Positions 3,859 through 33,967 of a stretch of DNA of 64,000 bases are shown here, one piece after another. The notes under the pieces were generated by a model. It saw only the letters and a program-made list of their open reading frames with translations. It was not told the origin of the DNA and searched no databases. Source of the DNA: a virus (taxonomy: Duplodnaviria; Caudoviricetes); IMG/VR virus record IMGVR_UViG_3300025751_000013, positions 45,901 to 109,900 of that record. One strand, given 5' to 3'. The position numbers and the translations under genes were made by a program. Position 1 is the first letter of the stretch. The number at the start of each line of letters is the position of its first letter.

Positions 3859-3894
3859 TTAGCAAGGTTCACATATAGAAACCTTGCTAATTTT
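3859..3894 (+). terminator. Intrinsic terminator
   Basis: TTAGCAAGGTT / AACCTTGCTAA 11-bp stem, 10-nt loop, then TTTT, just after the stop at 3854. Confidence 0.75.
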
Positions 3895-3899
3895 ATTAA

Positions 3900-3906
3900 C
3901 TAAATA
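3900..3906 (+). promoter_or_regulatory. T4-like late promoter box (CTAAATA)
   Basis: TAAATA after a terminator and before SD AAGGA and the ATG at 3931; the same box precedes many genes here. Confidence 0.6.
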
Positions 3907-3930
3907 TCATAGTGATAAAAGGACGCACAG

Positions 3931-4263
3931 ATGCCAAATAATAGTTTTAAATCTGTTAACACAGTAATAACTACAGTTAATGAAGTAATCTATACAGCCC
4001 CTCCGGGATTTACAACAATTGTGATTAACGCACAATTAGCAAACACAGCAGAAACAGACGTCAATTGTACATTTAGTTATGTTGAAAGTTCTTCAGGAAG
4101 TGAAACAAATCTTATAAGAGATTTTCGTGTTAGAGGTAACCAATCGCAGTCTGCGATTATGGGACGTCTAGTTATTAACGAAAACGACTCAATTAAGTGT
4201 CGATCAAATATCGATGCACCAATAAGATTAAGTTTAAGCTTGCTGGAGACTGAGGATGTCTAG
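3931..4263 (+). CDS. Small beta-rich virion adaptor-like protein (paralog of 2942..3280)
   Basis: FKS...NEVIYTAP...AQLAN...GRLVINE.DS...LSLLE pattern. Confidence 0.6.
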   Translation: MPNNSFKSVNTVITTVNEVIYTAPPGFTTIVINAQLANTAETDVNCTFSYVESSSGSETNLIRDFRVRGNQSQSAIMGRLVINENDSIKCRSNIDAPIRLSLSLLETEDV

Positions 4264-4903: not shown

Positions 4904-4935
4904 TAAAACAGTACATTATTATCCGCTTAAGCTTC

Positions 4936-4967
4936 AATTGGCATAAATACCTTACAGCATGCCAATT
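4936..4967 (+). promoter_or_regulatory. Late promoter box (TAAATA 4944-4949) bracketed by a perfect 9-bp inverted repeat
   Basis: AATTGGCAT (4936-4944) and ATGCCAATT (4959-4967), followed by SD GGGGAG. Confidence 0.55.
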
Positions 4968-4984
4968 AGGGGAGAGTGAACCGG

Positions 4985-5428
4985 ATGGCTAATAATAAAA
5001 AGTTCGTAGTCAAAAATGGACTACGCACCCATAACATTGACTTTACAACAACAGATTTGACAAAAACCATTCTTATGGATATTGACAATCTAGGTGATCT
5101 AAATGTTATCGGTGAGGGCAAAATCGTAGTAGGCGATTATGATGACAGTAGTAGTGTCATCGATCCTACAACTAAAATTGAGGTAATAGGTAATATTACA
5201 GCTTTTAAAGTAAAAGCTGATTTCCAGGGGGATGTGTTTGGGCAAGACTCTTCTCGACTTGTGGACTCTAATAACGGAGAGTTTAACGGATTTTTAAATG
5301 GGCAAGTAAGTAGTTTAGATAATCATACAACTGATGATCTAGATGAGGGCACACAAAATCTTTACTTTACGAAACAGAGAGCAAGACGTGAAGCAAGAAT
5401 AATGGCACTGATCTTTGGGAGTAACTAA
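4985..5428 (+). CDS. Short fibre linker protein (KFVVKNGL N-terminus; TTDDLxEGxxNLYFT motif; hydrophobic C-terminal MALIFG)
   Basis: ATG at 4985 fits the SD better than the GTG at 4976; shares motifs with the giant ORF. Confidence 0.6.
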   Translation: MANNKKFVVKNGLRTHNIDFTTTDLTKTILMDIDNLGDLNVIGEGKIVVGDYDDSSSVIDPTTKIEVIGNITAFKVKADFQGDVFGQDSSRLVDSNNGEFNGFLNGQVSSLDNHTTDDLDEGTQNLYFTKQRARREARIMALIFGSN

Positions 5429-5431
5429 TAT

Positions 5432-8400
5432 ATGTCTTTTATAAGCACGACAAGAGTAATAGAGAACAATCAAGAGGTTTTATTCGAAGGCCCATTAGAT
5501 AAAGAAAGTAATGTACACACAGTTGCCGTACTGAATGAAGGTGTTTCGCCTAATTCTACAACCGATCCAATTAAAGTTACATTAAGTCTTTATGATGCAT
5601 CTGAGCCCGCGACAAGACCTTTTGCGATACTAGAAGTTGCTCCAGGTACTGATGCACAGTATACTAAAGTTATAAACATACGTCCTGGAGATCAACTAAG
5701 AGCCGAAACTGATGGTGGTGAAGTCACTATTATGATCGGCGCTTTCGTTGATGAAGATACTCTAGTAACAAGTATTTTTAATATAACAGGGCAGTATGAT
5801 CATACAGTTACATATCAACCATATGATGTTGCATATTATCTTGGGTCAACATATGTTAATACAACAGTAGACCAAACTGCTGTATATCCTACACAAGTTA
5901 ATGGCGGTTGGACACCTTTAGGTTCTGGATTTAACGCATATGGTGAATTTGATCCACTTGTATTATATCCGCCGTTGTCTGTTGTTAAGTGGGCTAACAA
6001 TGTTTATGTTACAGTTACAGGATCTCCTGTTGGAGTTTATCCGAATGATTATAACAGTACGTGGATTTCTTTTACATCATTAACAAGTGACGAAATTCCA
6101 GATACGTCTGGTGTAAGTGCAAACGTTGCCGCAAGTATTACAATACTTAATAACAGATTAAACACACTTACTACAACTGAAGTCCCAGAAGCATCTGATG
6201 CCGATTTAGAAGCAGCATCAGGATTTGAAAATGCTTACTTTACTAGAGCTAGAGCTCGTGAATCTATTAGTGTAACAGGTGACTTAATTTATGATGTTAA
6301 CACTGGTGTATTATCGGCTCAAACATTAACACAAGATGATGTTAATATATTCATTGACAATAGAGTGTCAAAATCATTTGTTGATGCATTAGGAGTTGAT
6401 GCAGATACAGTTGATGGAATTGAAGGCACAGTATTAGCACGAACTGATATATCTCCAACATTTAGTCAAAACATTATAGTTTCAGGAGAAATGCGTGGCG
6501 ACCTACGTGGTAATGTATTAGCTGACGATAGTAGTATTATAATCAATCATGCTACAAAAGAAATTAACGGACGTTTCGAAGGTACACTAATTGCAGCAAA
6601 TAGTGATGTTATTTTAAATACAGGTATAGATGGTTTTGACGCTACGTTCACTGGTACTACATTTGGTGAACATAGAGGTGATGTTTTATCAGACGATTCG
6701 AATGTAATCATTGATGCTAGTTCAGGATTAATAAGCGGTGACTTAGAAGGTAACGTCACTGCAACCTTTGGTGTGTCACGATTTAATGATATTATTACTG
6801 ATAACATTATTGTTCAAGAAGAATTACAAGTTGCTAACATTTTAGGTAACATTACGTCAACAGGTGTTAGTACATTTAATAACGTTGATATTAATGGCGG
6901 TTATATTGATAACGCTGTTATAAACACAACTAATATTACAGGTACAACTATTGTAGGTACCTATATAGAAGCACAAACTGGTGGATTTAGAGGTGATATT
7001 CTATCCACAGGTACATCACGTTTCAACGACTTGATCGTTACAGGTGATCTAACATTTAACACATTAGAGGTACAAGCACTTGCTGACTTTAAATCTCTTG
7101 TAAATATCGACGGCGGACTTACAGTTGGCGGAACACTTAACGTTACTGGTGGAACTACATTTGGTAATATTAATGTTACTGGTGGACAAATTAGTGGCGT
7201 TACTTTGGGTAGTGGATCTTATCCAGTTGATATCGTTGCAGATGATGTAACAATTTTAAATTCATTTACTGCTACAGATGTTACTGCTGAATTTTCGACA
7301 TTAATAGTTACAGACGAAATGACAGGTGATGTCAGCGGTAACTTGAGAGGAAATGTATTATCACAAGATGGTACAACTGTTATAATAGATGCATTTGCTG
7401 GAATTATCAGAGGCGACTTAGTCGGCGACACAGTAGGACAACATACTGGTAATGTTGACGGTAATGTTGTAGGTAATGTAACAGGTAATGTTACTGCTGC
7501 TGCTGGACTATCGTCATTCTCTAGTATGAATGCACAAATTGGTGACATTGCTGCTCTTGAAGCAGGCTCATTAACAGTTACTGGTGCAGCAAGTTTTACA
7601 GGTGATCTAACATTTGACACACTACAAATTGCTTCATTAGCAGTTAATAACACATTGACAGTTTCTGGTATTTCAACCCTTGGATCAGTAGACATCGGCG
7701 GCGGCACAATGGATGCTGTAACAATCGGTGGCAATGTGCCTGCAAGTGTTACTGGTACAATTTTTACCGGTGACAAAATGTTTGCTGATTTATTTACAGG
7801 TAGCCTAAAGGGTGTCGTAGAAGGATCAGTTGAAGGTGACTTATACGGTAATGTCCTAGGATTAGATAGTTCAATCGTTCTAAATACAAGTACTGCAAGA
7901 GCTACATTAGATGCTGATGTTACTGGACAGATTGATGCAACAGCAAATGGTGGCGGCGAAAGTAGATTTGATGATATAACCATTACTGGTGTATTTTCGT
8001 TACAAGGCGGCGGCCAACTTACGGGTGATCTAACAGGTAATGTAGTAGGTGACGTTACAGGTGATGTATATGCAAGTAACGGAGATAAGATTTTAGAAAC
8101 AGGCAACGGAACAACTATTCCTGCAAAGTTAACAGGTAATGTAGAAGGCGAAGTATTAGGTACATTTACTGGTACAGCTTCTGGAGACTTCACAGGTGAT
8201 GTATTTGCTTACGATTCAACTAAAATGCTTGATGCGTTTTCTAATATATTGAGGGGTGATTTAGTTGGTAATGTAAGTGGTAATGTTTTAGGCGATTTAA
8301 CAGGTAATGTTAACACTACAGGAACTCAAAGCGATGGTTTCTTTAGAAACTTAACAGTTGAAGATACACTTACATTTCCATCATTGAATATTTCGACAAT

Positions 8401-11400
8401 TGATTCAGATAACATTGATGTTGATAATGCAATATTAGATGTTGTAACAATCGGCGCTGGTATAACTACTGGTACAATTGACAACACTACTATTGGTGCT
8501 ACAACCCCAAGAGGTGGTGTATTTACTACATTACAAGGTGCAATTATTGAAGCATCGAGTGAGTTTAGAGGTAACATTGTATCATCAGGATCTTCTAGAT
8601 TTAACGAGCTTATTGTTACTGGCGATTTTGTAGCAAACTTACGTGGTGATATTATTGCTGAAGATTCAAGTGTAATTGTTAACAATGCAACAAAAACATT
8701 TTATGGAACACTACAAGGTACAACAGTTGGAACACTACAAGGTAATGTTATAGCAACTTCAGGACTAAGCGAATTTAATAGTATAAACGTAGCACAAGAA
8801 ATATCAGGTACATTAAGAGGCGATGTAGTTGCACCTGATAGTACATTGTTAATTGATATATCTAGTCAAAATATAAACGGTAACGTAATAACAGCAACAG
8901 GTGGATTTAGTGGAGAGATTACTGGAACACTAGTAGGAGACATTAAGGCTACTGGTGGCCAGGTTGTTTTAGATTCAGGTACTGATGGCACAGATGCAAC
9001 ATTTGCAGGAAACGTAACAGGTAACGTTTTAAACACACTAGGTGAAACAGTACTAGATGCTAATGCTGAAAGACTTACAGGTACATTAGCAGGTAATGTA
9101 TACGCAATAGACGGAATATCACAAATACTAGACTCAGGCACAGATGGTACTGATGCTGTATTTACTGGACAAGTAATCGGAGATGTTACTGGGAATGTCA
9201 CAGCCTCGTCAGGTGTTTCTAACTTTAATAATATAGTTATTGCTAACGAAGCAGTAGGTAATTTTAAAGGTAATGTTCTTGCAGCAGATAGTTCTGTACT
9301 TGTTAATTATCTTGACTCGTCGATCACTGCTGCTACGATTACAGCAACAGGTAATTTTGTAGGTGACGTAATCGGTAATGTCGATACAAGAACAGTTGAT
9401 GTTAACACAAGAAGTTATTTCCAAAACATCACAGTGTTGGGCGAAATTGACCTTAGTGGCGCATCAGGTAATATTACTGCTGATATTGAAGGTACTTTAA
9501 AAGGTAATGTTGTTTCTACAACAGGTGACCCTAATGCTGCTGATGTATTATTATTAGATGCTGCTGGTAGATCGATTCTTAATATGGCATCAATTAGTTC
9601 TAATGAATTTACTGGTGACGAATTTATTGGTGATTTCCTTGGAGATTTATATTCTGCAGACGGATCATTTAGAGTATTAGATACAGGTGCAACAGGAAAT
9701 CAAGCATATTACATCGGTGATATGAGAGGTAATGTACAAGGTAACTTACTCGGTGATGATTCGTCGGTAATTGTAAATTATGTTTCGGGTGACATTAATG
9801 GTAGAGTAGTTAGTTCTTCTCAAGGATTTCAAGGTAAAATTGAAGATCCAAATAACAATATGTCCTCTTTGTATGACTTAACAATTCGTAATAATTTATT
9901 TGTTGAAGGCACAACTACTACCGTTAATACTGATAACTTAGATATTAAAGATAATACAATTGTTTTAAACAAAGGACAAAGCGACGGAGTTACTGGTGTT
10001 GTACTAGGTACAGCAGGTATCCAAATTGACAGAGGCAACGGCGTAGATGCAAACCTACTTTGGACGGAAGACGGCGGCGCTGGCTATTGGGACTTTACAA
10101 ATACTGCTCAAGTAAGAGGTGCATTTAGAGGTAATGTCACAGGTGATGTTTATAGTCCCTTTAATTCAGGAACTCCTATTCTAGACACAGGTACTGCAAC
10201 TTTACCTGCTACATACATAGGTAATGTTGTAGGTGATATAGAAGGTAACGTAACTGTTGGCGCTGGCTTGTCTAGTTTCTTTAGCGTAAATGTTGAAGAA
10301 GAAATTGCTGGTAATTTACGTGGTAACGTATTAGCAAACGACAGTACTAAGATTATTGATTTTATTAACAGTAATATCTATGGTGCTACAATTTCAGCAA
10401 CTGCTGGATTTAGTGGTGATGTATTTGGTAATATTGATGCTAGAGGAGAAAGTTCTGCAAGTTATAGTTATTTCCAAAACCTTAGTGTATCAGGTGACAT
10501 CCAATTTGATAGTTTAAACATTGCTACACTTGAAGTAGGTACTGATTTAAACGTAGGTAACAATGTAGATGTTACTGGTCAAATTACAGCAGGTAGTGTA
10601 GATATTGCTGGTGGTGAAATAGACGGCACAATTATAGGTTCAAATGTTGCTTCTGCTGCTAGTGTAACTACTCTTACAGTAACCACTGGTGATATTAATG
10701 TTACTCAAGGTACTATTAATATTACACAAGGTAACTTGAGTGCTGATACTATTTTTGCTGTTACTGATTTTAGAGGTAATTTAGTAGGTAATGTTACTGG
10801 TAGTTTATCAGGCGGCACTGTAACAGGTGACGTTTATGGTAACCTTTATCGCCCAGGAGGCACTACTCCTGTTCTTAATACTGGTACAGGCGGAGTTGAA
10901 CCTCGACTTTACGGTAATGTAACAGGTAATGTTACAGGTGACGTATTAGGTGATGTAACAGGTAACGTGCAAGGTGTATTATACGGTAGTGTTATAAGTG
11001 AAGATAGCACAACAACTATTGTTAATGCTTCGTCTGGTTTAATTACAGGTGACATTAATTCATCAGGTACATCTACTTTTAATAATATTGTTGTTGAAGG
11101 CGCATTAGACTTTACAACATTTGCTCTTAACGAAATTACAGTTAACACACTTCTACAGGTTGACGGCACTGCTAACTTAACAGTAGCAAATATATTTGCT
11201 GGTAATATTGATAACACTAGAATAGGCGTTACAACTCCTTCAACTATTAAGGGTACTGTTATTGAAGCAACTACTAAGTTTGTCGGTGACATTGCAGGTG
11301 AAGTAGATGGTAACGTTACTGGAGACTTAAGAGGTAATATAATAGGTGAAGATAGTTCAGTTATTGTAGATAATGATCTTAAAAGATTTACAGGTAATTT

Positions 11401-29400: not shown

Positions 29401-32400
29401 AGGTATTGAAATTGACCAAAACGGTACATCAACAAGCCTACTATGGAACAACGGCACAAATACTTGGACAGTTGGTAATAAAAACTTTACAGCAACTAGC
29501 TTTATTGCAACAACAGATTTCCAAGGTGCATTAGTTGGTAACGTTACTGGTAAAATTGGTGAAACTTCAAGAGACACAGGTAAGTTTACAACATTAGATA
29601 CAACCGGAACTGTTACAGTTGGTACAAGTTTAACTGTTAATGGAGGCGTTGCAACACTTGGCAATGTTGACATAAATGGTGGTAATATAGACGGTACTGT
29701 GATAGGCAATAATGTTCCGTCAACAGTTACTGGTACAACAATTACAGCCAGCCAATTTGTAGGTCCAGTTGATGGACATGTAACAGGTGACGTAACAGTA
29801 GAAGCAGGCGATACACTAAACGTAGACGGTATTGTAGACATTGATGCAAGTTCAGGTAATATGGACAATGTAGTTATAGGTGCAACAACACCAGTATCTG
29901 GTACATTTACAACTATAACTGGTAACACAAGTATAACTAGCGGAACTACAGGAACAGGACCAATTACTGGTGGTGTTATTACAGCAGCAACAAACTTTGC
30001 AGGTGCATTAACAGGTGATGTAACAAGTTCAGGTACAAGCACATTTGAAATTGTTGAAATAGATACTAGTGCTGATATTCAAACACTTGATGTACAAGCA
30101 GGTACAAGTTTATTAGGAACATTGGATGTTACCGGTGCAGCAACATTTGTAAGTCAAGTTAATGTTGAAGATGATGTTATTACACTTAATTCAGATTATA
30201 CATCTGGTGCTCCGTTAACAAGCGGACAGCAAGGTATACAAGTTCTTAGAGGTGATGAAAATACTGTAAGATTTGTATGGGTAGAAAGTCAAGATAGATG
30301 GGAAACACAAAATACTGATTTACGTGTAGGTGAGGATCTATCTGTTAATGGAACAATTATATCAACCGGCGGAATTCAAAGCACACCAATTGGTAATGTA
30401 ACTCCTAATACAGGTAAATTTACAACTCTTGAAACAACAGGCAATGTAACTATTACAGGCGATATTGACCATACAGGCGACTTTGCAACTACAAGTGCAG
30501 CAATTAAAATTGATAATGCTGAGTCTTCAATGAGCAATTTGCTTGGTTCGGGTATTTATGTAGGAGCAGACAGTCTTTCAGGTAGACCACATATTATAGT
30601 TGGATCAAACAGCAAATGGGAATTTAACAGAGACTTTGTTGCAACTGCCGGCAGTCAATTTATAGGTGATATAACAGGCGATGTAACAGGTAACATTACA
30701 TCGTCAGGTACAAGTACATTTAGTGGTACAGTTGATCTTAATGGTGCTACAGTAAACAACGCAGCATTTAACCTAGTTGGTGATCTTACAGGTACAGCAG
30801 ATGATGCAGATGCATTGTCAAGTGCTGTAACTGTTACATTAGCAGGAGATGTAGCAGGTACTGCAACCTTTACAAATGCAGGCGATACAGCAGCAATTAC
30901 AACAGTTATCCAAAACGGATCAGTTGAAAATGTAATGTTAGCAGGTTCTATTACTAATGATAAACTTGTAAATGATTCAGTAATTATAGGCGCAACTGAA
31001 GTAGATTTAGGCACAACTGTAACAGCATTTACAGGACTAACTAGTTTAACTTCAACAGTATTACTTGGTGAGTTAGGTGCTCCGGCAACTAGAAATGATA
31101 TTTATGCATCAGCTATAAGTGCTACTGGAATCGTTACAGCGCCAACATTTGCTGGTAATCTAAGCGCAACTGGCACAAGTACACTGGGTGCAGCAGTATT
31201 CAGTGGTAATGCAGTATTTAATGCAGGACTTTCTGTTGCATCAGGTCAAACAGCAACGATCAACGGAGACCTAGACGTTAACGGAACTACTACATTTGCA
31301 GATATTACTGTTCCAGGAACATTTACTGCTGAGTCTACTGCTAACTTTAACACTGACTTTATTAAACTAAATGCACTAGGTACAGTACAAAATGCAGGTA
31401 TAACAATTGAGCGTGGAGCTACTGATGTTTCGTTCTTCTGGGATGAATCAAATGACAAATGGTCTATAGCAAGCGAAACACTTGTAGCCGGTATGGTAGA
31501 AAGTGATGTAACAGGACATCACTACGGTGATGTAACAATTGCAGGCGGCGAAACTATCGATGTTAGTGCAGGTACAATAACTTTTGCTAACGATCAAATC
31601 AGTGGTAATGCAATCAACGGTGGTACTATTGATTCTATTACTATTACAACATTAGCGTCATCAACTGTAAACATAGACGGTGGCTCGATTGATGGAGTTT
31701 CGATAGGTAACGCATCTAGAGGCACTGGTAAGTTTAGTACACTTGACGCAACTGGAGCAATTACTACAGACACTAACGTCACAGCAACAGGATCGATAAA
31801 TGGTGCAACAGTTGTTGCAACTACATCAATGACAGCACCTCTATTCACAGGTGACTTAACTGGTGACGCAGATGGCGATCATACTGGTACATTTACAGGT
31901 ACAATGAGCGGCGCGATCGGCGGCGCATCAGACAGAAGCACAGCGCACTTTAGTACAGTTGATGCATCTAATGCTACACTATCAAGTGCAGACATTAACG
32001 GCGGTACAATTGACGGTGTTGTTATTGGCGGCGCATCTCCGAACTTAATTACAGGTACTACTATTAGTGGTACTACTATTAATGCAAGTACATTTAATGG
32101 TAATATCACAGGCGATGTAACAGGCGATGTAACAGGTAATGTAACAATTCCAGTCGGTGATACACTAACAGTTAACGGTACGTTTGCAATTGATAATATG
32201 ACAGTCAATCAAAACTTAACTGTAACAGGAGATATGACTGTAAACGGCACTACTACATCTCTTAATACTGAAGAAATTAAACTTGCTGACAATTATATTC
32301 TACTAAACAGTGGTACTAGCACAGCACAAAATGCTGGTTTAGAAGTTGATTTATCAGGTGGAACAACTAAGTCATTAGAATGGACTACGTCATCCGGCGG

Positions 32401-33967
32401 CAGATGGAGTGTTGGGTCTGAAGACTTTGCAGCAGCAAACTTTATTGGTGATGTAACTGGTGATGTAACTGGTAATGTTACAGGTAACATAACATCAACT
32501 GGCACTTCAACGTTCACAACAATTGATGTGAATGGTGGTAATATTGACGGAACAATTATTGGCGGTACATCTAGAGCTGAAATAACTGGTACAACAATTA
32601 CCGCAGACACAAGATTCTATGGTCCATTAACTGGTGATGTAACTGGTGATATAGTAGGTGATGTTACTGGTACAGTAAGTAGCATTACAAATCACTCAAC
32701 AACTGACTTATCAGAAGGTTCTAATTTATATTATACCGATGCAAGAGCAAGAGCATCTGTTAGTGTTACTGATACAGGCGGCGACGGCGGTCTTACTTAT
32801 AATAGTACAAGTGGTGTGTTTACTTATACAGGCCCAAGTGCATCAGAAGTAAGAGCACATATTACAGGAAGTACTGGTGTAACATTTTCAGGCGGTGCAA
32901 TAAGTATAGGACAACCAGTTGGTACAACAGATAATGTTACGTTTAACGATGTTGATGTTGATGGTGACTTAACTGTTGCAGGTTCGTTGTCGTTTGGTAC
33001 TGTTGAAATTACAAATAGTTTAACAGTTTCAGGCAATATAACTTCACTAGAATCAGAACAGATAGCGTTCTCTGATAACTTTATACTACTTAATGCAGTT
33101 CCGTCAGGAAGTACGCCACACGCAGGCGAAACAGCAGGTATTGAAATTGATAGAGGAACTAACTCTAACAAATTCTTTAGTTGGGATGAAACTGCTGATA
33201 AATGGTCACTAGGCGGTGAAACGCTTGTGGCTGGTACAGTTGAAGCCGACTTTACAGGTACATTAACTGGTAGAGTTAACCACGCAAGTGGTACATCAAA
33301 CTTCCAAAATATTGATGCTACTGGTACAATTGAAGCAGATGGTGTTATAACTGGTAACGCTGGCTTCTCAGGAGACTTGACTGGTAATGTATCTGGTACA
33401 GTAAATGATATTTCTAATCATTCAACAACAGCATTAAGTGAAGGTACAAATTTATACTTCACAACTGCAAGAGTAAACAATCATCTACTATCAAACATTA
33501 TTAATAACGTTATGCCAGCAGCTGGTACAGGTGGTACTTTAGACTTAGGTACTAACGGTCTAAGATGGAGAGATGGTTACTTTACTAGAGATGTTGTAGC
33601 AGACTCACTTACTGCTGTAACTAAAAACTTCGTAATTGATCACCCAACTAAGGAAGATCATAAATTAAGATATGCATCACTCGAGGGTCCAGAAAATGGT
33701 GTATATGTAAGAGGTAAACTAAAAGGTGAAAATGTAATTGAACTACCTGACTATTGGACAGCACTAGTACATGAAGAGTCAATTACAGTTAACTTAACAG
33801 CAAACCTCGGCTTCCAGCAATTATATGTTGAGAAGATAGAAGATGGCAAAGTGTATATTAATATTGCAGGGGCAGATATTGATGCAATTGATTGTTTCTA
33901 TACAGTTTACGGTGAACGTAAAGATGTAGACAGACTTGAGATTGAATTTAAAAAGGACTCAGAATAA
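5432..33967 (+). CDS. Giant (9,511 aa) repetitive tail-fibre/whisker-like protein
   Basis: Uninterrupted 28.5-kb ORF rich in G/T/N/D/V/I. Contains G(N/D)(V/L)T tetrapeptide runs, IDGGTIDG motifs, about 13 DNxIxLN...GIxxxRG...W modules, N-terminal CBM5/12-like repeats, and a C-terminal FVIDHP...LEGPENGVYVRG domain typical of phage fibres. Confidence 0.8.
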   Translation: MSFISTTRVIENNQEVLFEGPLDKESNVHTVAVLNEGVSPNSTTDPIKVTLSLYDASEPATRPFAILEVAPGTDAQYTKVINIRPGDQLRAETDGGEVTIMIGAFVDEDTLVTSIFNITGQYDHTVTYQPYDVAYYLGSTYVNTTVDQTAVYPTQVNGGWTPLGSGFNAYGEFDPLVLYPPLSVVKWANNVYVTVTGSPVGVYPNDYNSTWISFTSLTSDEIPDTSGVSANVAASITILNNRLNTLTTTEVPEASDADLEAASGFENAYFTRARARESISVTGDLIYDVNTGVLSAQTLTQDDVNIFIDNRVSKSFVDALGVDADTVDGIEGTVLARTDISPTFSQNIIVSGEMRGDLRGNVLADDSSIIINHATKEINGRFEGTLIAANSDVILNTGIDGFDATFTGTTFGEHRGDVLSDDSNVIIDASSGLISGDLEGNVTATFGVSRFNDIITDNIIVQEELQVANILGNITSTGVSTFNNVDINGGYIDNAVINTTNITGTTIVGTYIEAQTGGFRGDILSTGTSRFNDLIVTGDLTFNTLEVQALADFKSLVNIDGGLTVGGTLNVTGGTTFGNINVTGGQISGVTLGSGSYPVDIVADDVTILNSFTATDVTAEFSTLIVTDEMTGDVSGNLRGNVLSQDGTTVIIDAFAGIIRGDLVGDTVGQHTGNVDGNVVGNVTGNVTAAAGLSSFSSMNAQIGDIAALEAGSLTVTGAASFTGDLTFDTLQIASLAVNNTLTVSGISTLGSVDIGGGTMDAVTIGGNVPASVTGTIFTGDKMFADLFTGSLKGVVEGSVEGDLYGNVLGLDSSIVLNTSTARATLDADVTGQIDATANGGGESRFDDITITGVFSLQGGGQLTGDLTGNVVGDVTGDVYASNGDKILETGNGTTIPAKLTGNVEGEVLGTFTGTASGDFTGDVFAYDSTKMLDAFSNILRGDLVGNVSGNVLGDLTGNVNTTGTQSDGFFRNLTVEDTLTFPSLNISTIDSDNIDVDNAILDVVTIGAGITTGTIDNTTIGATTPRGGVFTTLQGAIIEASSEFRGNIVSSGSSRFNELIVTGDFVANLRGDIIAEDSSVIVNNATKTFYGTLQGTTVGTLQGNVIATSGLSEFNSINVAQEISGTLRGDVVAPDSTLLIDISSQNINGNVITATGGFSGEITGTLVGDIKATGGQVVLDSGTDGTDATFAGNVTGNVLNTLGETVLDANAERLTGTLAGNVYAIDGISQILDSGTDGTDAVFTGQVIGDVTGNVTASSGVSNFNNIVIANEAVGNFKGNVLAADSSVLVNYLDSSITAATITATGNFVGDVIGNVDTRTVDVNTRSYFQNITVLGEIDLSGASGNITADIEGTLKGNVVSTTGDPNAADVLLLDAAGRSILNMASISSNEFTGDEFIGDFLGDLYSADGSFRVLDTGATGNQAYYIGDMRGNVQGNLLGDDSSVIVNYVSGDINGRVVSSSQGFQGKIEDPNNNMSSLYDLTIRNNLFVEGTTTTVNTDNLDIKDNTIVLNKGQSDGVTGVVLGTAGIQIDRGNGVDANLLWTEDGGAGYWDFTNTAQVRGAFRGNVTGDVYSPFNSGTPILDTGTATLPATYIGNVVGDIEGNVTVGAGLSSFFSVNVEEEIAGNLRGNVLANDSTKIIDFINSNIYGATISATAGFSGDVFGNIDARGESSASYSYFQNLSVSGDIQFDSLNIATLEVGTDLNVGNNVDVTGQITAGSVDIAGGEIDGTIIGSNVASAASVTTLTVTTGDINVTQGTINITQGNLSADTIFAVTDFRGNLVGNVTGSLSGGTVTGDVYGNLYRPGGTTPVLNTGTGGVEPRLYGNVTGNVTGDVLGDVTGNVQGVLYGSVISEDSTTTIVNASSGLITGDINSSGTSTFNNIVVEGALDFTTFALNEITVNTLLQVDGTANLTVANIFAGNIDNTRIGVTTPSTIKGTVIEATTKFVGDIAGEVDGNVTGDLRGNIIGEDSSVIVDNDLKRFTGNLLGDVYTTDGVTLFNILDSGTDGTDASIIADVKTPLGATIVDTSAATVTATGGFTGQIDASAPGTSQFHTVTVSNNLSVPGTVNVTQTVEASGGIENTSIGAGNTESTGAFTSITTTGAVTVGGDLIVQGNTVTLNTSTLDVEDLNITVAKGAANAAAADGAGLTVDTAGAWIQYKNPSDQWRFNKDIDLTTENVRLLGNITSTGVSNFSGTANFSGTVDMAGATINNSTFQNMDVAATSEFSGNMTLDTAANFTMINAAGTPVTVFSIDGSNGNTTISQGGQFEILDTLSASMFSVDGGTGNTLVTGTLGVDGIVSINNTTGSTTTTTGALIVDGGVGIAENLFIGGNLDVAGNAVISGNLTFGDAATDTVAFGADINSSIIPDINNTYDLGSSAQAWRELYLTQNINFKGATGDNEIIVPTNLFDALSIKDDANTSIIDVETTTGAPVVKINPNTTVAGTLDVTGETTLASAIISDVNPSRVVLSGGSKEISYSDQFTYSAGAGVIDVDITGSLAVDNLTFDGNTISSTDSNGAIILDPQGSGVVTVNANTTISGTFTSTGLASLDNGIDVNGAVFTVSNTGAVNTTSTLDVTGLASLDGGIDVDGAFTVANTTGNITTSGTLDITGTTTLRNTVGIQGITTISNANDASNATSGALIVSGGAGIAKKLFVAGDFEVGTNRFNVAATTGDTTVAGDFTVTSGTAFLDGGINVDSGAFIVANTTGDITTLGDISIADSKKLLIGTGNDLEIFHDGSNSFIKDVGAGNLTIATDVLTLTKGDGTKTTAVLDADGATELYYNNTKRFETTLVGADVTGTFNTSGLATLDSAVISDLPANRIVYTSGANGRLISTADFVIDGTSLNVGSNNFVVTAATGNTAIVGTLDVTGETTVGNLVADDIKLGDGEKIQFGNAQDLEIYHDGSNSYIHESGTGGLILRSANSILFQDATSTKTAMSLTANGSQILYHNDVQRFQTTVSGADITGDVDISGTLDVDGNFQVGTSRFNVEATTGNTQIDGTLTADGLTTLNGGITADGGVFTVADGTGNIATSGTLNVTGDTTLSTLTATSDVTVQGDLTVEGNLTTVNATEINVSDKNITLGGTTTTLSALNNSGITIGGTLGAGSNPALTYTYTGVSPNQVERFNLNRELIVDKVHGDIKGNVYASDDTSIILNAGTNGNDAIFKGDVYSTTDTLIIDSGASIDDATFYGNIDLRTETNYGNTPSTGTTSYFNNLDVAGTLSMANASIGTLSGNLVGDIYASNGTSLILDNGTNGTDASFQGNIKNDNGTVIIQNGSTGVAATFTGKLVGDVDSSGISYFNNMYANVINAFLDGDISGSVLGEDSVMMLDAGARTLSVTDVQTSTITASSYLSGDVRGDIYNNNGTQKILETGGTATDAAIFTGRVDASNAINTTSNFNNVDATGIFTGVLGAVGNTANAFVNDLTVDSVATFTGVVNALTSAVNINSVNIDGGTIDGTVIGAATPAAITGTTVTANTGFVGNITGNITGDLDARGLGGTTFIDDLVMGPGTNAAIDTATITTLNASTLVLTNLALSGDLDVLTGTGTFQNLEVTAGGNIVGLATLGTSASPVASSVITTIDVSAGDIVGLSTLGTSASPVIAADIDTAVIDDVTSVTVRADNFTITNTGDSAHKFTGPLEGNITSAGTSTFTGTVSLSGATVVLADNQLSGDKIDGGVIGNADLLGNGTSNTISGYDITVTGALDLTGATVTYDNDSISGDKVSGGTIDAANITGGAGKTLDGYDITVGAGRTLTVNGSTSVATLAASALVELDGGFNVNDDFVVDVDGNTRLNAAANFEIWNAAGTPVKVFDIVGSTGATTIANTLDVVGPVSITTGTGSTSTSTGSLTVTGGVGISENAFVGGDLDVAANAQLSGTLDVDGVTNINNTLTVDSLASLDGGIAVSDGAAGDAFTVAVTTGNVVTTGTLDVTGLSSLDGGIDVNGSNYTVSAAGAVTQASTLDVSGDVTLLQSANFEIFDAGVGSNSTFAVNGADGNTQIAGTLGVDGLASLNASLTVTGLTTTDTAVVNNTLNVTGATTLDGTFAVQNAGADVFTVADATGNTVISGTLQAGNTTVADVTATGTGTITGNFDVNTTAFTVAAATGNTDILGDLAVNTTALTVAAATGNTTVGGTLDVAGDTNFNSTTGSTLSTNGAVVIDGGLGVAENINFGGVLKTTTATASTDTVTGSIVTAGGVGIAGALNVGGVTHISQTVDATSASDGALFVDGGVGIAKKLFVGTDLDVTGSVQIDTDLNVTGNTVITGNLTVNGASTTINAATLDVEDKDIRVASNVDTLLGANNAGLIIGSTNVGDVANGGNAGETNVTFTYNATDDSLDSNVDIQAPTFIGNLTGDVTGSATIGVGKTLDVDGAFNVNASSGNLDNVVIGGVTRADASVHTLTTRNINVDSGYDVTLTSGDVTITAGDFVATTGNISATSGTISGDIFVAGTEFRGDLTTVDGGTGVNLFESTGVAVSTGNITTTTGDFTSTSGDFTTGTGNISTSSGDITTTTGDINGQIITANTKVIGQIGTDASTASDMNDAFVSTLYSNTTITSSGNTDVGGNLTVTGTSNFDDAVTISNNLTITGPGGVDAQGDPNLSTATFQNIVVTGSFTVDTLTIDDFTVGDELAVLGDTTLSGNLTVNSGVTTLSSVDIAGGAMDGVTIGGDGVTPAANITGAALTGTSLTTTTGNVTLNSGNIVVTQGNITTTAGEIRSPVGGFVGQIDATATGTSSFDNVLVNDDLTVNGKVFSVASAASGFVGDLYSNNSGGTPIKILQAGTTLGTAMYTGNVTGIVGDSANRNTGHFSTLDATQSNLATVDIDGGTIDGVTFTAGTLVDTPIGQTGTPQNATVSNLVSNTIRVNSSTANTIDGVTIGDTQRRPGNFTTLDANTSITVGSVVGSINSTPIGDSIASTITGTTITASTRFEGVLQGDIQSTSGGVGLPAGTLLIDSSTRNISNIVDFTSETVEATTITATQTTNGFQGDLTGDVIGQIGTSTLADRNNAFFTNVDILGDVDIDGDITLAATHSITGIIDGLAGSDITGAFTLETGQTADLSGGTLTLANDQISGDAIEGGTIGNITISNLTSPNITITGGTLQGVDATSFDIDGGTIINTSIGQSGSAQNIKGATIESTTGFVGQINSTGGGGGTSNFDIITVAGTSTFTGNATFGNLSGALTGSFTGGATITSGTFSNIQIASSTQINSSAFIGPLSGDVTGGGTGTVSTFNRINVQGGPAETSQISNLTVGTFATNAATITGGNITNTTIGGATGTGSFPGYFSLIEATGAITAGTQFIGDMNNPNTVNQDDSSADFTQGYFTDLRVKNFETDTIIINSDQEFSNVLITGDLTVNEDVLIKGDLETEQNFITINKNETGNAGISGAGNAGIIFERGNGVGIQDASLIFSESGGNPEYEFSQFKVVASEFEAPLFSGNITAALGTSTFNNITVNNSANLGNSVTIAGGNIDNTVIGNGTQASIDGTTIKAHVEFQGDLDTTNGVNGNIDTITLDATGLITARAGVDVTGGTIDGEGRFTTGTTIDAGTHIRNTPIGVDVAGISGRAVGYFNALEATTIISTLGITGNITGDVTGSIDDRNTIGEVPLNPPSLTENLNMNLSQFDRVSVLGHLTMGTDTYIKAVNLDVSGIFNVNDLDIGATLDVAGNFTVGSGTPKKLDVNAATGAMTHNGAFTTSGTATFDGDINANANVTIGSDATDELIINAVIDSDILTKTDGAYDIGTVSTRWGHVYADNATFTDDVAIGGNLTVTGSVTQTNVDQINIADNIIVLNGQESSNVISASTAGIEISRGTGSNASFLYDEGLSSWTLTGATSKLTVDEVRADIEATDGTTIVDISSKTIDMVGVDTDTLTVNLGATIGTTLAVSGLSTLAQAKVQDLAQDHIPLAGLDGRLNTNANFRFDGVDFDIGAAGSETFKVAVASGNTDIQGTLFVDKQTTIKGNNLGASSTTTGAVVVQGGIGISENIHAGGTLTLTGLASLATGINVNNDFVVDADGNTDLSSGATLTVDGEVNFNGGLVMDTDRFTVANGSGNVATAGTLDVSGNTTLTSVTTSGMASLNAGIEVDTTKFTVDGGTGAVVTQSTLTVDGITTLNSDLSVTGSNDIRIIDALTANVFEVNGTTGATLITGNLTMDGSVGAGNLDIGGNFTVANATGNTDITGTLDVTGDTTVDVFSAGTSTLGTTSITGTSLTVGSDFTVTGTNGVTEIGGMLSADGGIEVRNTANTAEAFSVALGTGNTNIVGTLDVTGTTTVHDLSITGTLGVTEGLTVTDDFSVNGNFVVTAATGNTDITGTLDVTGDTTVDVFSAGTSTLGTTSITGTTLSVGSDFTVTGASGVTEIGGMLSADGGIQVRNTANTAEAFSVALGTGNTNIVGTLDVTGTTTVHDLNITGALGVTEGLTVTDDFSVNGNFVVTAATGNTQIDGTLTADGNFNINNQFTVTASTGATNIASGPLTVGGLTTLNGGITADGGVFTVADGTGSIATSGTLSVTGATTLSSTLSADGGIEVRNTGNTAEAFSVQAGTGNIDTEGTLDVGGDVTIGTNVVTIDAGNGNTIIAGTLNVNTSATVASLRVSDLTTVNAVLLGQSSGEVADSSNLTFSGSLLDVTGSIDVSGNVDIAGNVFADNAYIETLNVNEIPVTGSAGLITGSSAFTFNPTGGILSVTGSITTNGTVTGSTFLGNITAPGTSTFSGQTNLNGPVTLSNNLTIGASVGSINATSGAIATNSTITAGGLASLNGGINVDSGAFTVSGDGFGSVFIDGQTNIDNNLLITSSGDITLSDGVSTVITLDGATGGISADGNLDIAGDANLYGSITRIGNAVSDELEINSVLTKGFYLKAGTLNADIGSTTTRFADAFLENLNVSENVTIAGDLTVEGEFTTVNAQTVAIADNIITLNSGQAAADAGIEIDLSGTTKELKWANTAGEWTVGSETFVAGAFRGDLHASDSAVLINQTTKAVDVASVTTSGNTTVGGILAVNGTNLNVGSGNFVVTGANGNTDIAGILNVGSSNFTVQPGSGNTLVAGTLGITGLTTIDTSTITGVMNVTSSIDSTGTTNGAIKILGGIGLSGNIHMGGNLHVGGTINATSGTITGTTLGTTSSRVTIEADNIGVSGLITGDISGSVTSGNVAITGGTINTTPIGGASAATADVIRGTVITAETNFVGNITGNVTSTGTSTFDGIDVSGGEIDGTVIGGNDPANITGLVIEADTEFRGNIVAASGTSSFTNLTVNGNITNTGSTSTATFRDLSVVGNFVPNALNVTTDADIGGNLTVGGTAQFDTTLLQVNQAATGVPANSLTAGIEVSRGSSPSKRLNWDEGGSTWTVSTEKFTAGTFEATSTITAPTVTADVTGNVTGNITSSGSSSFTTVDINGGTIDGTVIGSNSPAAITGTTITSNSGFSGNLTGNVTGNVTSTGTSTFTTVDINGGAIDGTTVGATTAATVRGTTITATTGFVGDITGDLTGLADRADKLETTRTIALAGDVAGSIGFDGTSNVTINTTIQPNSVDIVADTTGDYARTVTVSGNGLSITGTQGHDIAYQVISNAVSTNTASTIVFRDTFGAFSAGDITGSLITANTRLDGITRGNVQSTADGAFAAGVTLVNAADRTLDNIKDITSEDGTFDTIDINGGNIDGTVIGGATPAAGTFLALEGTTIEATTGFTGDLTGDVLASDASVILNHTAKSVNATNLDGILGANTAAAATVTTLAASGAVTLTAGTASNSTTTGTLVITGGAGVSGTVSAGQFVGPVQGALVGTVGAGGIANRNSGEFTTVNTDSNVVVGGSLTVNSATSTFSTVDINGGAIDGTRIGGATPDNADFLDVEGTTITASTGFVGNITAPSGGTVGTSTLHDLDLQGDLTVASGSIIFGANTVIDNSRNATFNDLTVQGTFLPNTLNVTSTAVIGTDLTVNGDLTVNGTTTTLDTDNITLADNTIVLNTGYSGLSSGAFTSGIEIDQNGTSTSLLWNNGTNTWTVGNKNFTATSFIATTDFQGALVGNVTGKIGETSRDTGKFTTLDTTGTVTVGTSLTVNGGVATLGNVDINGGNIDGTVIGNNVPSTVTGTTITASQFVGPVDGHVTGDVTVEAGDTLNVDGIVDIDASSGNMDNVVIGATTPVSGTFTTITGNTSITSGTTGTGPITGGVITAATNFAGALTGDVTSSGTSTFEIVEIDTSADIQTLDVQAGTSLLGTLDVTGAATFVSQVNVEDDVITLNSDYTSGAPLTSGQQGIQVLRGDENTVRFVWVESQDRWETQNTDLRVGEDLSVNGTIISTGGIQSTPIGNVTPNTGKFTTLETTGNVTITGDIDHTGDFATTSAAIKIDNAESSMSNLLGSGIYVGADSLSGRPHIIVGSNSKWEFNRDFVATAGSQFIGDITGDVTGNITSSGTSTFSGTVDLNGATVNNAAFNLVGDLTGTADDADALSSAVTVTLAGDVAGTATFTNAGDTAAITTVIQNGSVENVMLAGSITNDKLVNDSVIIGATEVDLGTTVTAFTGLTSLTSTVLLGELGAPATRNDIYASAISATGIVTAPTFAGNLSATGTSTLGAAVFSGNAVFNAGLSVASGQTATINGDLDVNGTTTFADITVPGTFTAESTANFNTDFIKLNALGTVQNAGITIERGATDVSFFWDESNDKWSIASETLVAGMVESDVTGHHYGDVTIAGGETIDVSAGTITFANDQISGNAINGGTIDSITITTLASSTVNIDGGSIDGVSIGNASRGTGKFSTLDATGAITTDTNVTATGSINGATVVATTSMTAPLFTGDLTGDADGDHTGTFTGTMSGAIGGASDRSTAHFSTVDASNATLSSADINGGTIDGVVIGGASPNLITGTTISGTTINASTFNGNITGDVTGDVTGNVTIPVGDTLTVNGTFAIDNMTVNQNLTVTGDMTVNGTTTSLNTEEIKLADNYILLNSGTSTAQNAGLEVDLSGGTTKSLEWTTSSGGRWSVGSEDFAAANFIGDVTGDVTGNVTGNITSTGTSTFTTIDVNGGNIDGTIIGGTSRAEITGTTITADTRFYGPLTGDVTGDIVGDVTGTVSSITNHSTTDLSEGSNLYYTDARARASVSVTDTGGDGGLTYNSTSGVFTYTGPSASEVRAHITGSTGVTFSGGAISIGQPVGTTDNVTFNDVDVDGDLTVAGSLSFGTVEITNSLTVSGNITSLESEQIAFSDNFILLNAVPSGSTPHAGETAGIEIDRGTNSNKFFSWDETADKWSLGGETLVAGTVEADFTGTLTGRVNHASGTSNFQNIDATGTIEADGVITGNAGFSGDLTGNVSGTVNDISNHSTTALSEGTNLYFTTARVNNHLLSNIINNVMPAAGTGGTLDLGTNGLRWRDGYFTRDVVADSLTAVTKNFVIDHPTKEDHKLRYASLEGPENGVYVRGKLKGENVIELPDYWTALVHEESITVNLTANLGFQQLYVEKIEDGKVYINIAGADIDAIDCFYTVYGERKDVDRLEIEFKKDSE
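14441..14563 (+). repeat. Dispersed near-identical DNA repeat; second copy at 24794-25000 carries an 84-bp insertion
   Basis: 32 identical bp at 14441-14472 and 24794-24825; 35 identical bp at 14474-14508 and 24911-24945; high similarity continues downstream. Confidence 0.85.
23990..24796 (+). repeat. Tandem 396-bp (132-aa) near-identical duplication inside the giant ORF
   Basis: GCAACAGGTAATACA starts at 23990, 24386 and 24782; the two full units differ mostly at synonymous sites. Confidence 0.92.
32108..32146 (+). repeat. 12-bp tandem repeat encoding TGDV/TGNV (one example of many)
   Basis: ACAGGCGATGTA x2 followed by ACAGGTAATGTA. Confidence 0.8.

What the first reader, a model, noticed from the sequence alone, without database searches (positions are those of the whole stretch)
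5432..33967. A single 9,511-aa phage ORF, possibly a fibre about half a micron long
Seen: a 28.5-kb uninterrupted ORF (45% of the window), Gly/Thr/Asn/Asp-rich and acidic. I spotted only one Cys, in the C-terminal domain, and no signal peptide. Known: the T4 gp34 trimer (about 1,290 aa) spans roughly 70 nm. Inference: similar packing gives roughly 500 nm, an exceptionally large phage protein that could act as a long search fibre or whisker.
Basis: partly seen in the sequence, partly recalled or inferred. Interest (0 to 1): 0.8.

Follow-up and report, generated by a model that had tools for sequence, protein, structure and literature searches.

The report
Giant 9,511-residue phage fibre gene
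An uncultured aquatic jumbo phage carries a real, conserved 28.5-kb gene for a 954-kDa protein built like a very long receptor-binding fibre; it is longer than the largest phage protein I found reported (7,694 residues), but it is an extreme form of a familiar kind of phage part, not a new kind of system.

Summary
Window 5432-33967 (+) is one ORF of 9,511 aa: 954 kDa, pI 4.05, Thr/Gly/Val/Ala/Ser/Asn/Asp-rich, one Cys, no signal peptide or membrane segment.

It is not a misassembly. Three other IMG/VR contigs, representing two further genotypes, hold a collinear, uninterrupted 9,270-aa orthologue (95.5-97.5% identity). dN/dS is 0.12-0.15 overall and 0.06-0.20 in every 1,000-codon block.

The gene sits in a fibre cluster between the head and neck genes of a T4-like-core jumbo myovirus. 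Its parts are:
- an N-terminal jelly-roll plus chitin-binding-like hairpins, a head shared with shorter phage fibre proteins;
- a roughly 9,000-aa all-beta shaft of two alternating repeat zones, punctuated by about 14 copies of a ~95-aa module;
- a C-terminal beta-sandwich knob found at the C-terminus of at least 2,904 phage proteins, with a fold like tailspike and tail-fibre tips.

Best reading: a virion fibre for long-range host capture. The half-micron length follows only if it is a trimer packed like T4 gp34. Trimer state, attachment site and presence in virions are untested. The scan has noted giant fibre genes on other DNA, including longer ones in giant viruses.

The parts
5432..33967 (+). 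Whole gene, 9,511 codons plus stop
   Evidence: orthologues
5432..5749 (+). N-terminal jelly-roll beta-sandwich (aa 1-106), the proposed virion-docking and oligomerising head
   Evidence: AF2 pLDDT about 75-90. VIA Z 9.9-10.3 to nucleoplasmin core, the HFTV1 turret and the KHP40 trimeric cement protein. BFVD matches to free-standing ~110-aa 'virion structural proteins' with TM 0.75-0.85.
5780..6076 (+). Two CBM5/12-like (chitin-binding-type) beta-hairpin units (aa 117-215)
   Evidence: VIA Z 7.1, rmsd 1.7 A over 46 aa to the Serratia ChiB chitin-binding domain. BFVD hits named CBM5/12 or ChiC_BD. PHROG 9851 'tail fiber protein', E 1.8e-8, at the same distance from the N-terminus.
6164..6331 (+). 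First 'NxYFT...RAR' connector motif (aa 245-300); further copies at 32684-32821 and 33410-33565
   Evidence: (many short fibre proteins match aa 245-300)
6269..11731 (+). Shaft zone I-a (aa 280-2100): ~54-aa 'GGxIDGTxIG' units, ~26-aa 'GNVxxxDSxxxxD' units and GNVxGDVxG tetrapeptide runs
   Evidence: iterative HMMs on the protein itself. The boundaries are approximate.
11732..14605 (+). Shaft zone II-a (aa 2101-3058): ~33-aa 'FxVxxxTGNTxIxGTLDVTG' units and the 'GALxVxGGxGI' motif
14729..16531 (+). Shaft zone I-b (aa 3100-3700)
16643..18310 (+). Shaft zone II-b (aa 3738-4293)
18404..22531 (+). Shaft zone I-c (aa 4325-5700)
23009..26662 (+). Shaft zone II-c (aa 5860-7077), which includes the 132-aa tandem units
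26669..33541 (+). Shaft zone I-d (aa 7080-9370), where the W-modules are densest
9863..10162 (+). W-module 1, a ~95-aa node with consensus ...DLTVxGxxTTxN...DNxIxLN...AGIxIDRG...LxWxE...W. Thirteen further copies lie at 11741-12025, 14597-14899, 18233-18547, 21494-21811, 22739-23032, 26123-26389, 27320-27616, 29255-29545, 30089-30370, 30431-30697, 31238-31534, 32201-32479 and 32987-33277.
   Evidence: The same module occurs once in the next gene (33968-36019), once in a 338-aa ORF of the contig, and 10-12 times in the 5.3-kaa relatives. A profile search found no solved relative.
24074..24469 (+). In-frame 132-aa unit present in the window but absent from the three orthologues (aa 6215-6346); an extra copy of a 396-nt tandem repeat
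27593..27916 (+). In-frame 108-aa block (two IDGT units, aa 7388-7495) present only in the window
   Evidence: Its nearest internal DNA match is 75% identical, at aa ~9007-9072.
27920..28045 (+). 'KLxTxRTIxLAGDVxGSxxFDG' repeat (aa 7497-7538), with a second copy near aa 8469
   Evidence: weak match to the C-terminal region of the phage L Dec protein, 6e3c, E 2.2e-5
33614..33964 (+). C-terminal beta-sandwich knob (aa ~9395-9511), the proposed receptor-binding tip; holds the only Cys
   Evidence: PHROG 17490 and 28536. At least 2,904 proteins carry it, at the C-terminus in every example I inspected. It occurs in 219 cultured phage records. AF2 pLDDT about 90. VIA Z 8.1, rmsd 2.1 A over 68 aa to the C-terminal domain of the cyanophage Pam1 tailspike, followed by other fibre and spike tips and H-type lectins.

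Best explanation
The ORF is a genuine late structural gene of an uncultured aquatic jumbo myovirus. It encodes one very long, acidic, all-beta fibre subunit.

Proposed working (inferred, not shown):
- The N-terminal jelly-roll plus chitin-binding-like hairpins oligomerise, most likely as a trimer, and dock the fibre on the particle.
- The ~9,000-residue shaft is a chain of short beta-repeat segments interrupted by about 14 globular ~95-aa nodes that act as registers or hinges.
- The C-terminal beta-sandwich knob binds a host-surface glycan reversibly.

Such a fibre would be a few hundred nanometres long: about 0.5 micrometre if packed like T4 gp34, about 0.24 if it is a monomeric solenoid. That would enlarge the capture radius of a big, slowly diffusing particle in dilute water, and would hand the cell over to the shorter fibres and the baseplate.

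The shaft evolves by in-frame gain and loss of whole modules. Where on the particle it attaches (tail or baseplate, collar, or capsid) is open.
For: Shown:
- The gene is real and under purifying selection along its whole length, and it is reproduced in three other contigs.
- It lies in a cluster of fibre genes: a 4,958-aa gene upstream that hits PHROG tail-fibre families, and a 683-aa fibre downstream. The cluster sits between the major head and portal genes and the gp13/14/15-like neck, sheath and tube genes.
- Shaft segments match 'putative tail fiber protein' genes of Roseobacter CRP phages, E 4e-30.
- The W-module is shared with the neighbouring 683-aa fibre.
- The C-terminal domain is the terminal domain of at least 2,904 phage proteins of 30-3,794 aa. 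Examples are the Flavobacterium phage immuto 'tail fiber-like protein' and a gene beside gp5 in S-SSM7.
- The model of that domain resembles the tips of Pam1, AP22 gp53, a K64-1 depolymerase and R-pyocin fibres.
- The N-terminal architecture recurs on shorter phage proteins. In BFVD these include ones with collagen triple-helix or intramolecular-chaperone domains, which are obligate trimers in known cases.
- There is no membrane segment and no helix-compatible run longer than 10 aa.
- Module-level in-frame indels separate genotypes that are 95-97% identical.

Inferred: trimer state, length, glycan binding and the capture function.
Against: - There is no direct evidence that the protein is made or sits in virions.
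- No Pfam family matches, and no shaft module has a solved relative by sequence. The shaft fold and oligomeric state are therefore unknown.
- The tip match (Z 8.1) and the jelly-roll match (Z ~10) are in the range where only a common fold may be shared (notes).
- No recognised baseplate gene lies nearby. The best N-terminal matches include capsid cement and turret proteins, so a head or collar fibre is as open as a tail fibre.
- A 2.9-MDa trimer is costly, so copy number must be low.
Confidence: 0.7

Rival explanations
1. It is a fibre, but anchored on the capsid or collar (a head fibre or decoration-anchored filament) rather than on the baseplate. It would then act as a first-contact tether, like the head fibres or filaments of some other phages.
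For: - The cluster lies between the head genes (portal, major head protein) and the neck genes, with no baseplate gene recognised nearby.
- The N-terminal jelly-roll's matches with the highest identity (18%) are the trimeric capsid cement protein of phage KHP40 (Z 9.9, 103 aa) and the HFTV1 capsid turret (Z 10.0).
- There is a weak match to the phage L decoration protein Dec.
- Jumbo phages with capsid fibres exist (PTm1 and PTm5, cited in PMC13282480).
Against: - The jelly-roll is a generic fold; nucleoplasmin scores equally.
- The CBM-like part matches a PHROG annotated as tail fibre.
- The tip domain occurs on proteins annotated as tail fibres and beside gp5.
- Gene order is a weak guide.
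Confidence: 0.3
2. It is a monomeric beta-solenoid or bead-chain adhesin rather than an intertwined trimer. It would then be roughly 0.2-0.25 micrometre long and more flexible.
For: - No trimer evidence was obtainable here.
- The short Gly/Asn/Asp-punctuated repeats (Gly autocorrelation peaks at lags 4, 6 and 12) are also compatible with solenoid turns.
Against: - Proteins with the same N-terminal head include collagen-like and intramolecular-chaperone fibres, which are trimeric in known cases.
- The tip resembles domains that function as trimers.
- T4 gp34 shows the same grammar of beta-helix stretches punctuated by globular domains (PMC5537660).
Confidence: 0.2
3. It is not a virion appendage. 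It could be, for example, an internal or ejected protein, or a protein that acts on the infected cell or its surroundings.
For: - Extreme acidity (net charge about -720).
- No virion data.
- No Pfam assignment.
Against: - It sits inside the structural fibre cluster.
- Its modules and tip domain are shared with annotated fibres.
- It has no signal peptide or membrane segment.
- No enzymatic domain was found.
Confidence: 0.07
4. It is an assembly artefact or a decaying pseudogene that happens to stay open.
For: - The source is a short-read metagenome contig.
- The sequence has many internal repeats, including one 396-nt tandem unit with exact stretches of at least 80 nt. The extra 132-aa copy in the window could therefore be an assembly miscount.
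Against: - Four contigs from different samples are collinear over the whole gene. Three of them span the whole gene; the fourth is cut by its contig end.
- All other internal DNA repeats are 225 nt or shorter and at most 79% identical, or 64 nt or shorter.
- dN/dS is 0.06-0.20 in every block.
Confidence: 0.02

Closest known systems
T4 long tail fibre proteins gp34 and gp37 (trimeric beta-helical fibres)
   Same: Both are all-beta, Gly/Thr/Asn-rich shafts built from repeats and punctuated by small globular domains, with an N-terminal attachment end and a C-terminal distal end. Gp34's scale of 0.055 nm per residue (PMC5537660) gives the 0.5-micrometre estimate.
   Different: No sequence relation was found. 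T4 builds 145 nm from four proteins, whereas here one chain is more than seven times as long as gp34. The trimer state is untested, and no chaperone gene was identified.
Giant structural proteins of huge and T4-like aquatic phages (PHROG 701/5342/4527 families; 'up to 7,694 aa', Al-Shayeb et al. 2020, PMC7162821)
   Same: These are multi-thousand-residue predicted structural proteins in jumbo phage genomes. One such gene (4,958 aa) is the upstream neighbour.
   Different: The 9,511-aa protein does not hit those PHROG families; it matches only PHROG 697 weakly plus the tip families. It is longer than the published maximum I could find.
5,341- and 5,349-aa metagenomic proteins P0272 and P0273
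   Same: They have the same composition class (Thr 16-17%, Gly ~13%, no Cys). They share W-modules (10-12 copies) and NLYFT connectors, with local identity of 26-66%.
   Different: Their N-terminus and C-terminus differ. They are about 56% of the length and are not collinear with the giant, so the resemblance is module shuffling rather than orthology.
C-terminal tip domains of phage receptor-binding proteins (cyanophage Pam1 tailspike 7eea, AP22 gp53 4mtm, R-pyocin fibres 6cl6/6cu2, K64-1 depolymerase 9k4a)
   Same: Each is a small beta-sandwich at the extreme C-terminus of a fibre or spike. The best match has Z 8.1, rmsd 2.1 A over 68 aa.
   Different: Identity is only 7-14%, and the Z values are in the grey zone. 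The ligand is unknown.
Free-standing ~110-aa jelly-roll 'virion structural proteins' (e.g. Microcystis phage MaMV-DC, Synechococcus phage S-SCSM1), and the KHP40 cement and HFTV1 turret proteins
   Same: The fold of aa 1-106 matches (TM 0.75-0.85 in BFVD; Z about 10 in PDB). Two ~110-aa paralogues lie just upstream (2942-3280 and 3931-4263).
   Different: Here the domain is fused to a fibre. Sequence homology to the upstream small genes is only suggestive (hhalign probability 55%, E 1e-4; BLASTP E 0.04-0.09).
Giant bacterial fibrillar adhesins
   Same: They work alike in principle: a megadalton, acidic, repeat-built stalk that holds a binding domain far from the surface.
   Different: The giant has no Ig-like, cadherin or RTX domains, no secretion signal, and is phage-encoded. 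It is not a member.

Membership tests
Phage receptor-binding fibre (generic trimeric tail-fibre class, e.g. T4 gp34/gp37) | Encoded in the virion structural module among other fibre genes | tested here: met
   Neighbours hit PHROG tail-fibre families. Neck, sheath, tube, portal and major head genes are on the same contig.
Phage receptor-binding fibre (generic trimeric tail-fibre class, e.g. T4 gp34/gp37) | N-terminal domain that docks on the particle | tested here: inconclusive
   The N-terminal jelly-roll plus CBM-like head is shared with shorter fibre proteins and with the fold of 'virion structural proteins'. No docking partner was identified.
Phage receptor-binding fibre (generic trimeric tail-fibre class, e.g. 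T4 gp34/gp37) | Homotrimeric intertwined beta shaft | not testable with these tools
Indirect hints only.
Phage receptor-binding fibre (generic trimeric tail-fibre class, e.g. T4 gp34/gp37) | C-terminal receptor-binding tip | tested here: inconclusive
   A widespread, always C-terminal domain whose fold resembles fibre and spike tips, Z 8.1. Binding was not tested.
Phage receptor-binding fibre (generic trimeric tail-fibre class, e.g. T4 gp34/gp37) | Present in purified virions | not testable with these tools
   The phage is uncultured and no proteome exists.
Fibres with a C-terminal intramolecular chaperone (Peptidase_S74, e.g. T5 pb1, K1F endosialidase) | S74 or G2 autoproteolytic chaperone domain at the C-terminus | tested here: not met
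   No Pfam hit at E 0.01 or below. The C-terminal model is a beta-sandwich knob.
T4 fibritin (Wac) whiskers | Long trimeric alpha-helical coiled coil with a C-terminal foldon | tested here: not met
   The longest run without G/N/D/S/T/P is 10 residues. The highest share of helix-forming residues in any 28-aa window is 0.57, at one site.
Giant phage structural proteins of PHROG 701/5342/4527 (the upstream neighbour's families) | Profile match to those families | tested here: not met
   One search lists only PHROG 17490, 28536 and 697 for the giant. One search shows strong hits for the 4,958-aa neighbour.
Capsid decoration or cement proteins (KHP40 cement, HFTV1 turret, Dec) | Jelly-roll or OB domain that binds capsid symmetry axes as an oligomer | tested here: inconclusive
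   Fold match with Z 9.9-10.0 and 18% identity, but nucleoplasmin and Ena pilins score the same. The Dec match is 41 residues, E 2e-5.
Bacterial fibrillar adhesins | Ig-like, cadherin or RTX stalk repeats plus a secretion signal or anchor | tested here: not met
   No Pfam domains; no signal or membrane segment.

The most novel reading that the evidence does not exclude
A single polypeptide forms a roughly half-micrometre trimeric 'fishing line' on a jumbo phage. It would be the longest bacteriophage protein and appendage subunit on record, built from shaft modules with no described relatives. It may be sugar-coated by the phage's own glycosyltransferase cluster 23 kb downstream. Its length would be tuned between populations by gain and loss of whole modules.
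Probability: 0.3. Interest if true: 0.75.

Novelty: new variant of a known kind. Interest (0 to 1): 0.6.

Why it matters
If the protein is on the virion, it sets a new upper bound for phage proteins and appendages, at about 2.9 MDa per trimer. This one gene is about 8% of an estimated 370-kb genome. It would also be a concrete case for testing whether large, slowly diffusing phages in dilute waters compensate with long capture fibres.

The work defines three unnamed but widespread modules that annotation pipelines currently miss: the ~95-aa W-module, the fibre head of jelly-roll plus CBM5/12-like hairpins, and a C-terminal knob on at least 2,904 proteins. The knob is a practical handle for predicting receptor-binding proteins in cyanophage, flavobacterial and roseobacter phage genomes.

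Tried and rejected
- **Pfam** on both halves found nothing.
- **PDB sequence searches** of both halves and the last 611 aa found only a 41-residue Dec match and a chance proteasome hit.
- **PDB profile searches** with alignments of the W-module, the GGxGI unit and the IDGT unit found nothing meaningful; LptA and uS17 appeared at E above 0.1.
- **Megablast** of the gene and of the sheath-tube region against 50,697 phage records found no match.
- **Word-based search for relatives of 5,231-16,645 aa** with residues 1-5000 found none. A second search with residues 5001-9511 timed out. Residues 9000-9511 found two 5.3-kaa proteins.
- **Synteny with the nearest cultured sheath relative**, Atu_ph07: there are no fibre genes beside its sheath gene, so this was uninformative.
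- **Sigma-70 promoter and terminator scans** around the gene ends found no more sites than shuffled sequence gives.
I could therefore not see the context of P0123, a 45%-identical fragment truncated at both ends that is probably part of a diverged orthologue.
- **Foldseek of the tip model against PDB** gave no hit at E 0.001 or below. Only the VIA wide search gave usable rows.
- **Misassembly, a pseudogene and a fibritin-like whisker** were considered and rejected. The evidence against each is given under rival explanations and the membership tests.
- **N-x-S/T sequons** are mildly enriched, 231 against 185 +/- 11 in shuffles. I do not build on this.
Full report
**Observation.** The ORF listing and translate confirm a single ATG-started ORF at 5432..33967 (+) of 9,511 codons, 44.6% of the window.
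- The product is 953.9 kDa with pI 4.05 and 982 acidic against 262 basic residues.
- Composition is Thr 16.1, Gly 13.8, Val 9.0, Ala 8.5, Ser 8.1, Asn 8.1 and Asp 7.8 %.
- The one Cys, at residue 9488, lies in the C-terminal domain. That position is nearly invariant across the domain family.
- No 19-residue window reaches the usual membrane threshold. The longest stretch free of Gly/Asn/Asp/Ser/Thr/Pro is 10 residues, so there is no signal peptide, membrane anchor or coiled coil.
- A GGGAG motif lies upstream of the start. The stop codon overlaps the next gene's ATG (TAAATG).

**Is it real?** The window is bases 45901-109900 of a 109.9-kb IMG/VR viral contig that CheckV rates about 30% complete. 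That implies a genome of roughly 370 kb.
- DNA self-comparison of the gene finds only one long repeat, a 396-nt tandem unit at 91% identity. Everything else is either 225 nt or shorter at 79% identity or less, or 64 nt or shorter. Paralogue-driven misjoins therefore have little substrate.
- The N- and C-terminal ends pulled out four other IMG/VR contigs from different samples. These are collinear with the gene at 94-97% DNA identity.
- In the three contigs that span the gene, I fetched it and found an uninterrupted 9,270-codon ORF starting with the same residues. Two of the three are 99.97% identical, so with the window there are three genotypes. The fourth contig is cut by its end.
- Protein identity to the window is 95.5-97.5%. 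The only length differences are one single-residue indel and two whole-module blocks present in the window alone: aa 6215-6346, an extra tandem unit, and aa 7388-7495, two 54-aa units.
- Nei-Gojobori dN/dS is 0.12-0.15 between genotypes and 0.06-0.20 in each 1,000-codon block.
The one soft spot is the extra 396-nt copy, which a short-read assembler could miscount.

**Context.** PHROG scans place the gene in a T4-like-core structural region.
- On the same contig are the portal, major head protein, gp15-, gp14- and gp13-like neck proteins, a 1,087-aa sheath, tube proteins and the large terminase.
- The sheath is 44-48% identical to those of the jumbo phages Atu_ph07 and PA5oct.
- Immediately upstream is a 4,958-aa gene that hits the tail-fibre and virion-structural families PHROG 5342, 4527 and 701.
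- Between that gene and the giant lies a duplicated two-gene cassette: 110-aa proteins 38% identical to each other, E 5e-28, and partners sharing an N-terminal ~80 aa, E 3e-12. A 150-aa gene ending in an NLYFT motif follows.
- Immediately downstream is a 683-aa fibre protein that itself carries one W-module and Stf-like repeats.
- No recognised baseplate gene is adjacent.

**Anatomy.**
- *N-terminal head.* AlphaFold2 with 11 homologues gives a confident jelly-roll for aa 1-106, followed by small hairpin units over aa 117-215.
  - The jelly-roll aligns at Z about 10 with nucleoplasmin cores, the HFTV1 capsid turret, the KHP40 trimeric cement protein and Ena pilins.
  - In BFVD it superposes at TM 0.75-0.85 on many free-standing ~110-aa phage proteins, several named virion structural protein.
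  - The hairpins match the chitin-binding domain of Serratia ChiB (Z 7.1, rmsd 1.7 A) and PHROG 9851 'tail fiber protein'.
  - The same head precedes short shafts in other metagenomic proteins. In BFVD it precedes collagen-like and intramolecular-chaperone fibres.
  - An earlier scan note suggested this domain is a fused copy of the two upstream 110-aa genes. hhalign gives a collinear 87-column match at probability 55%, E 1e-4. BLASTP is marginal. I treat that reading as plausible but not shown.
- *Shaft.* Iterated HMMs on the protein show two alternating zone types.
  - Zone I covers aa 280-2100, 3100-3700, 4325-5700 and 7080-9370. It has 54-aa GGxIDGT units, 26-aa units and GNVxGDVxG runs.
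  - Zone II covers aa 2101-3058, 3738-4293 and 5860-7077. It has ~33-aa FxV...GTLDVTG units and a GALxVxGGxGI motif.
- *Nodes.* About 14 copies of a ~95-aa Trp-containing module are spread along the shaft and are densest near the C-terminus.
- *Solved relatives.* None of these modules has a Pfam family or a solved relative by sequence.
- *C-terminal knob.* The last ~120 aa match PHROG 17490 and 28536.
  - At least 2,904 proteins of 30-3,794 aa carry this domain, and at least 268 IMG/VR loci encode it. It is C-terminal in every example I inspected.
  - It occurs in 219 cultured phage records, mostly Synechococcus and Prochlorococcus myoviruses, with a few Flavobacterium and Roseobacter phages.
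  - The model is a beta-sandwich with pLDDT about 90.
  - Its best structural neighbours are the C-terminal domain of the cyanophage Pam1 tailspike (Z 8.1, rmsd 2.1 A over 68 aa) and the tips of AP22 gp53, a K64-1 depolymerase, R-pyocin fibres and H-type lectins.
  - The scores are in the grey zone, but the list is dominated by fibre and spike tips.

**Relatives and size.**
- The first 1,200 residues, scored by HMMER against 1.84 billion representative proteins, find only 219 relatives, none longer than 2,054 aa. One is a 45%-identical 1,188-aa fragment cut at both ends, probably from a diverged orthologue.
- Searches restricted to proteins of 5,231-16,645 aa find nothing for residues 1-5000. 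For residues 9000-9511 they find two proteins, of 5,341 and 5,349 aa.
- Those two have the same composition and 10-12 W-modules but different ends, and they are not collinear with the giant.
- The largest phage protein I could find in print is 7,694 aa (PMC7162821). The 9,270-9,511-aa protein exceeds it.
- Earlier notes of this scan report still longer ORFs in giant viruses of eukaryotes (not checked here).

**Mechanism and length.** The grammar matches that described for T4 gp34: beta stretches punctuated by small globular domains, an N-terminal head shared with other fibres, and a terminal knob (PMC5537660).
- Gp34 residues 744-1289 span just over 30 nm, or 0.055 nm per residue. The same packing gives about 520 nm for 9,511 aa and 510 nm for 9,270 aa.
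- A monomeric solenoid at about 0.025 nm per residue (my own assumed figure) gives about 240 nm.
- I could not test oligomeric state or shaft fold. Only monomer prediction was on offer, and both jobs went to the terminal domains.
- The capture-fibre function is inferred from the anatomy and from the physics of diffusion-limited encounter.
- The attachment site is open. I would put tail or baseplate and capsid or collar at comparable odds.

**Verdict.** This is a real, conserved, record-length fibre-type gene made of undescribed modules. It is an extreme variant of a known kind of phage part. The half-micron reading is reasonable arithmetic on an untested assumption.

Noticed in passing
window 1-2928 (whole gene = contig G000:C1:33952-48828): A second giant fibre gene of 4,958 aa lies directly upstream, with strong PHROG tail-fibre and virion-structural hits (5342, 4527, 701). 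Earlier scan notes say it is made of phycobiliprotein-like repeats; I did not test that. The two genes together take 43 kb.
   Followed up: partly
window 2942-4903: A two-gene cassette occurs twice. Each copy has a ~110-aa protein (2942-3280 and 3931-4263; 38% identical, E 5e-28; PHROG 1276) followed by a ~200-aa protein (3273-3854 and 4256-4903) whose first ~80 aa are shared between the two copies (E 3e-12). The 110-aa proteins may share the jelly-roll fold of the giant's N-terminus (hhalign probability 55%).
   Followed up: partly
window 4976-5428: A 150-aa gene ends 3 nt before the giant's ATG. Its C-terminus carries the same 'TTDDLxEGxxNLYFT..RAR' motif that occurs three times in the giant. 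It may be an adaptor or a fibre stub.
   Followed up: no
window 33968-36019: A 683-aa fibre gene whose start overlaps the giant's stop. It contains one W-module, 'TLTGDVxGSxTFTNLGN' repeats and a distinct C-terminal domain (PHROG 6427, 22593 and 19602 'tail fiber').
   Followed up: partly
window 56880-60963: A glycan-synthesis cluster: a nucleotidyltransferase fused to a mannose-6-phosphate-isomerase-type cupin, a GT8 glycosyltransferase, a polysaccharide pyruvyl transferase, a GT29 (sialyltransferase-family) fragment, a methyltransferase and a DUF6716 putative glycosyltransferase. It could decorate Thr/Ser-rich virion fibres or alter the host surface. This is untested.
   Followed up: partly
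window 24074-24469 and 27593-27916: Whole-module, in-frame copy-number differences (132 aa and 108 aa) separate the window from three orthologues that are 95-97% identical. The fibre's length varies between populations.
   Followed up: yes
proteins P0272 and P0273 (metagenomic, 5,341 and 5,349 aa): Further Cys-free, Thr/Gly-rich giant proteins with 10-12 W-modules but a different N-terminus (MAISDIQKIDWLWKK...) and C-terminus. They point to a wider class of module-shuffled giant fibres in aquatic phages.
   Followed up: partly
contig G000:C1:25818-26834: A 338-aa ORF between the major head gene and the fibre cluster carries one W-module (E 1.4e-15).
   Followed up: no
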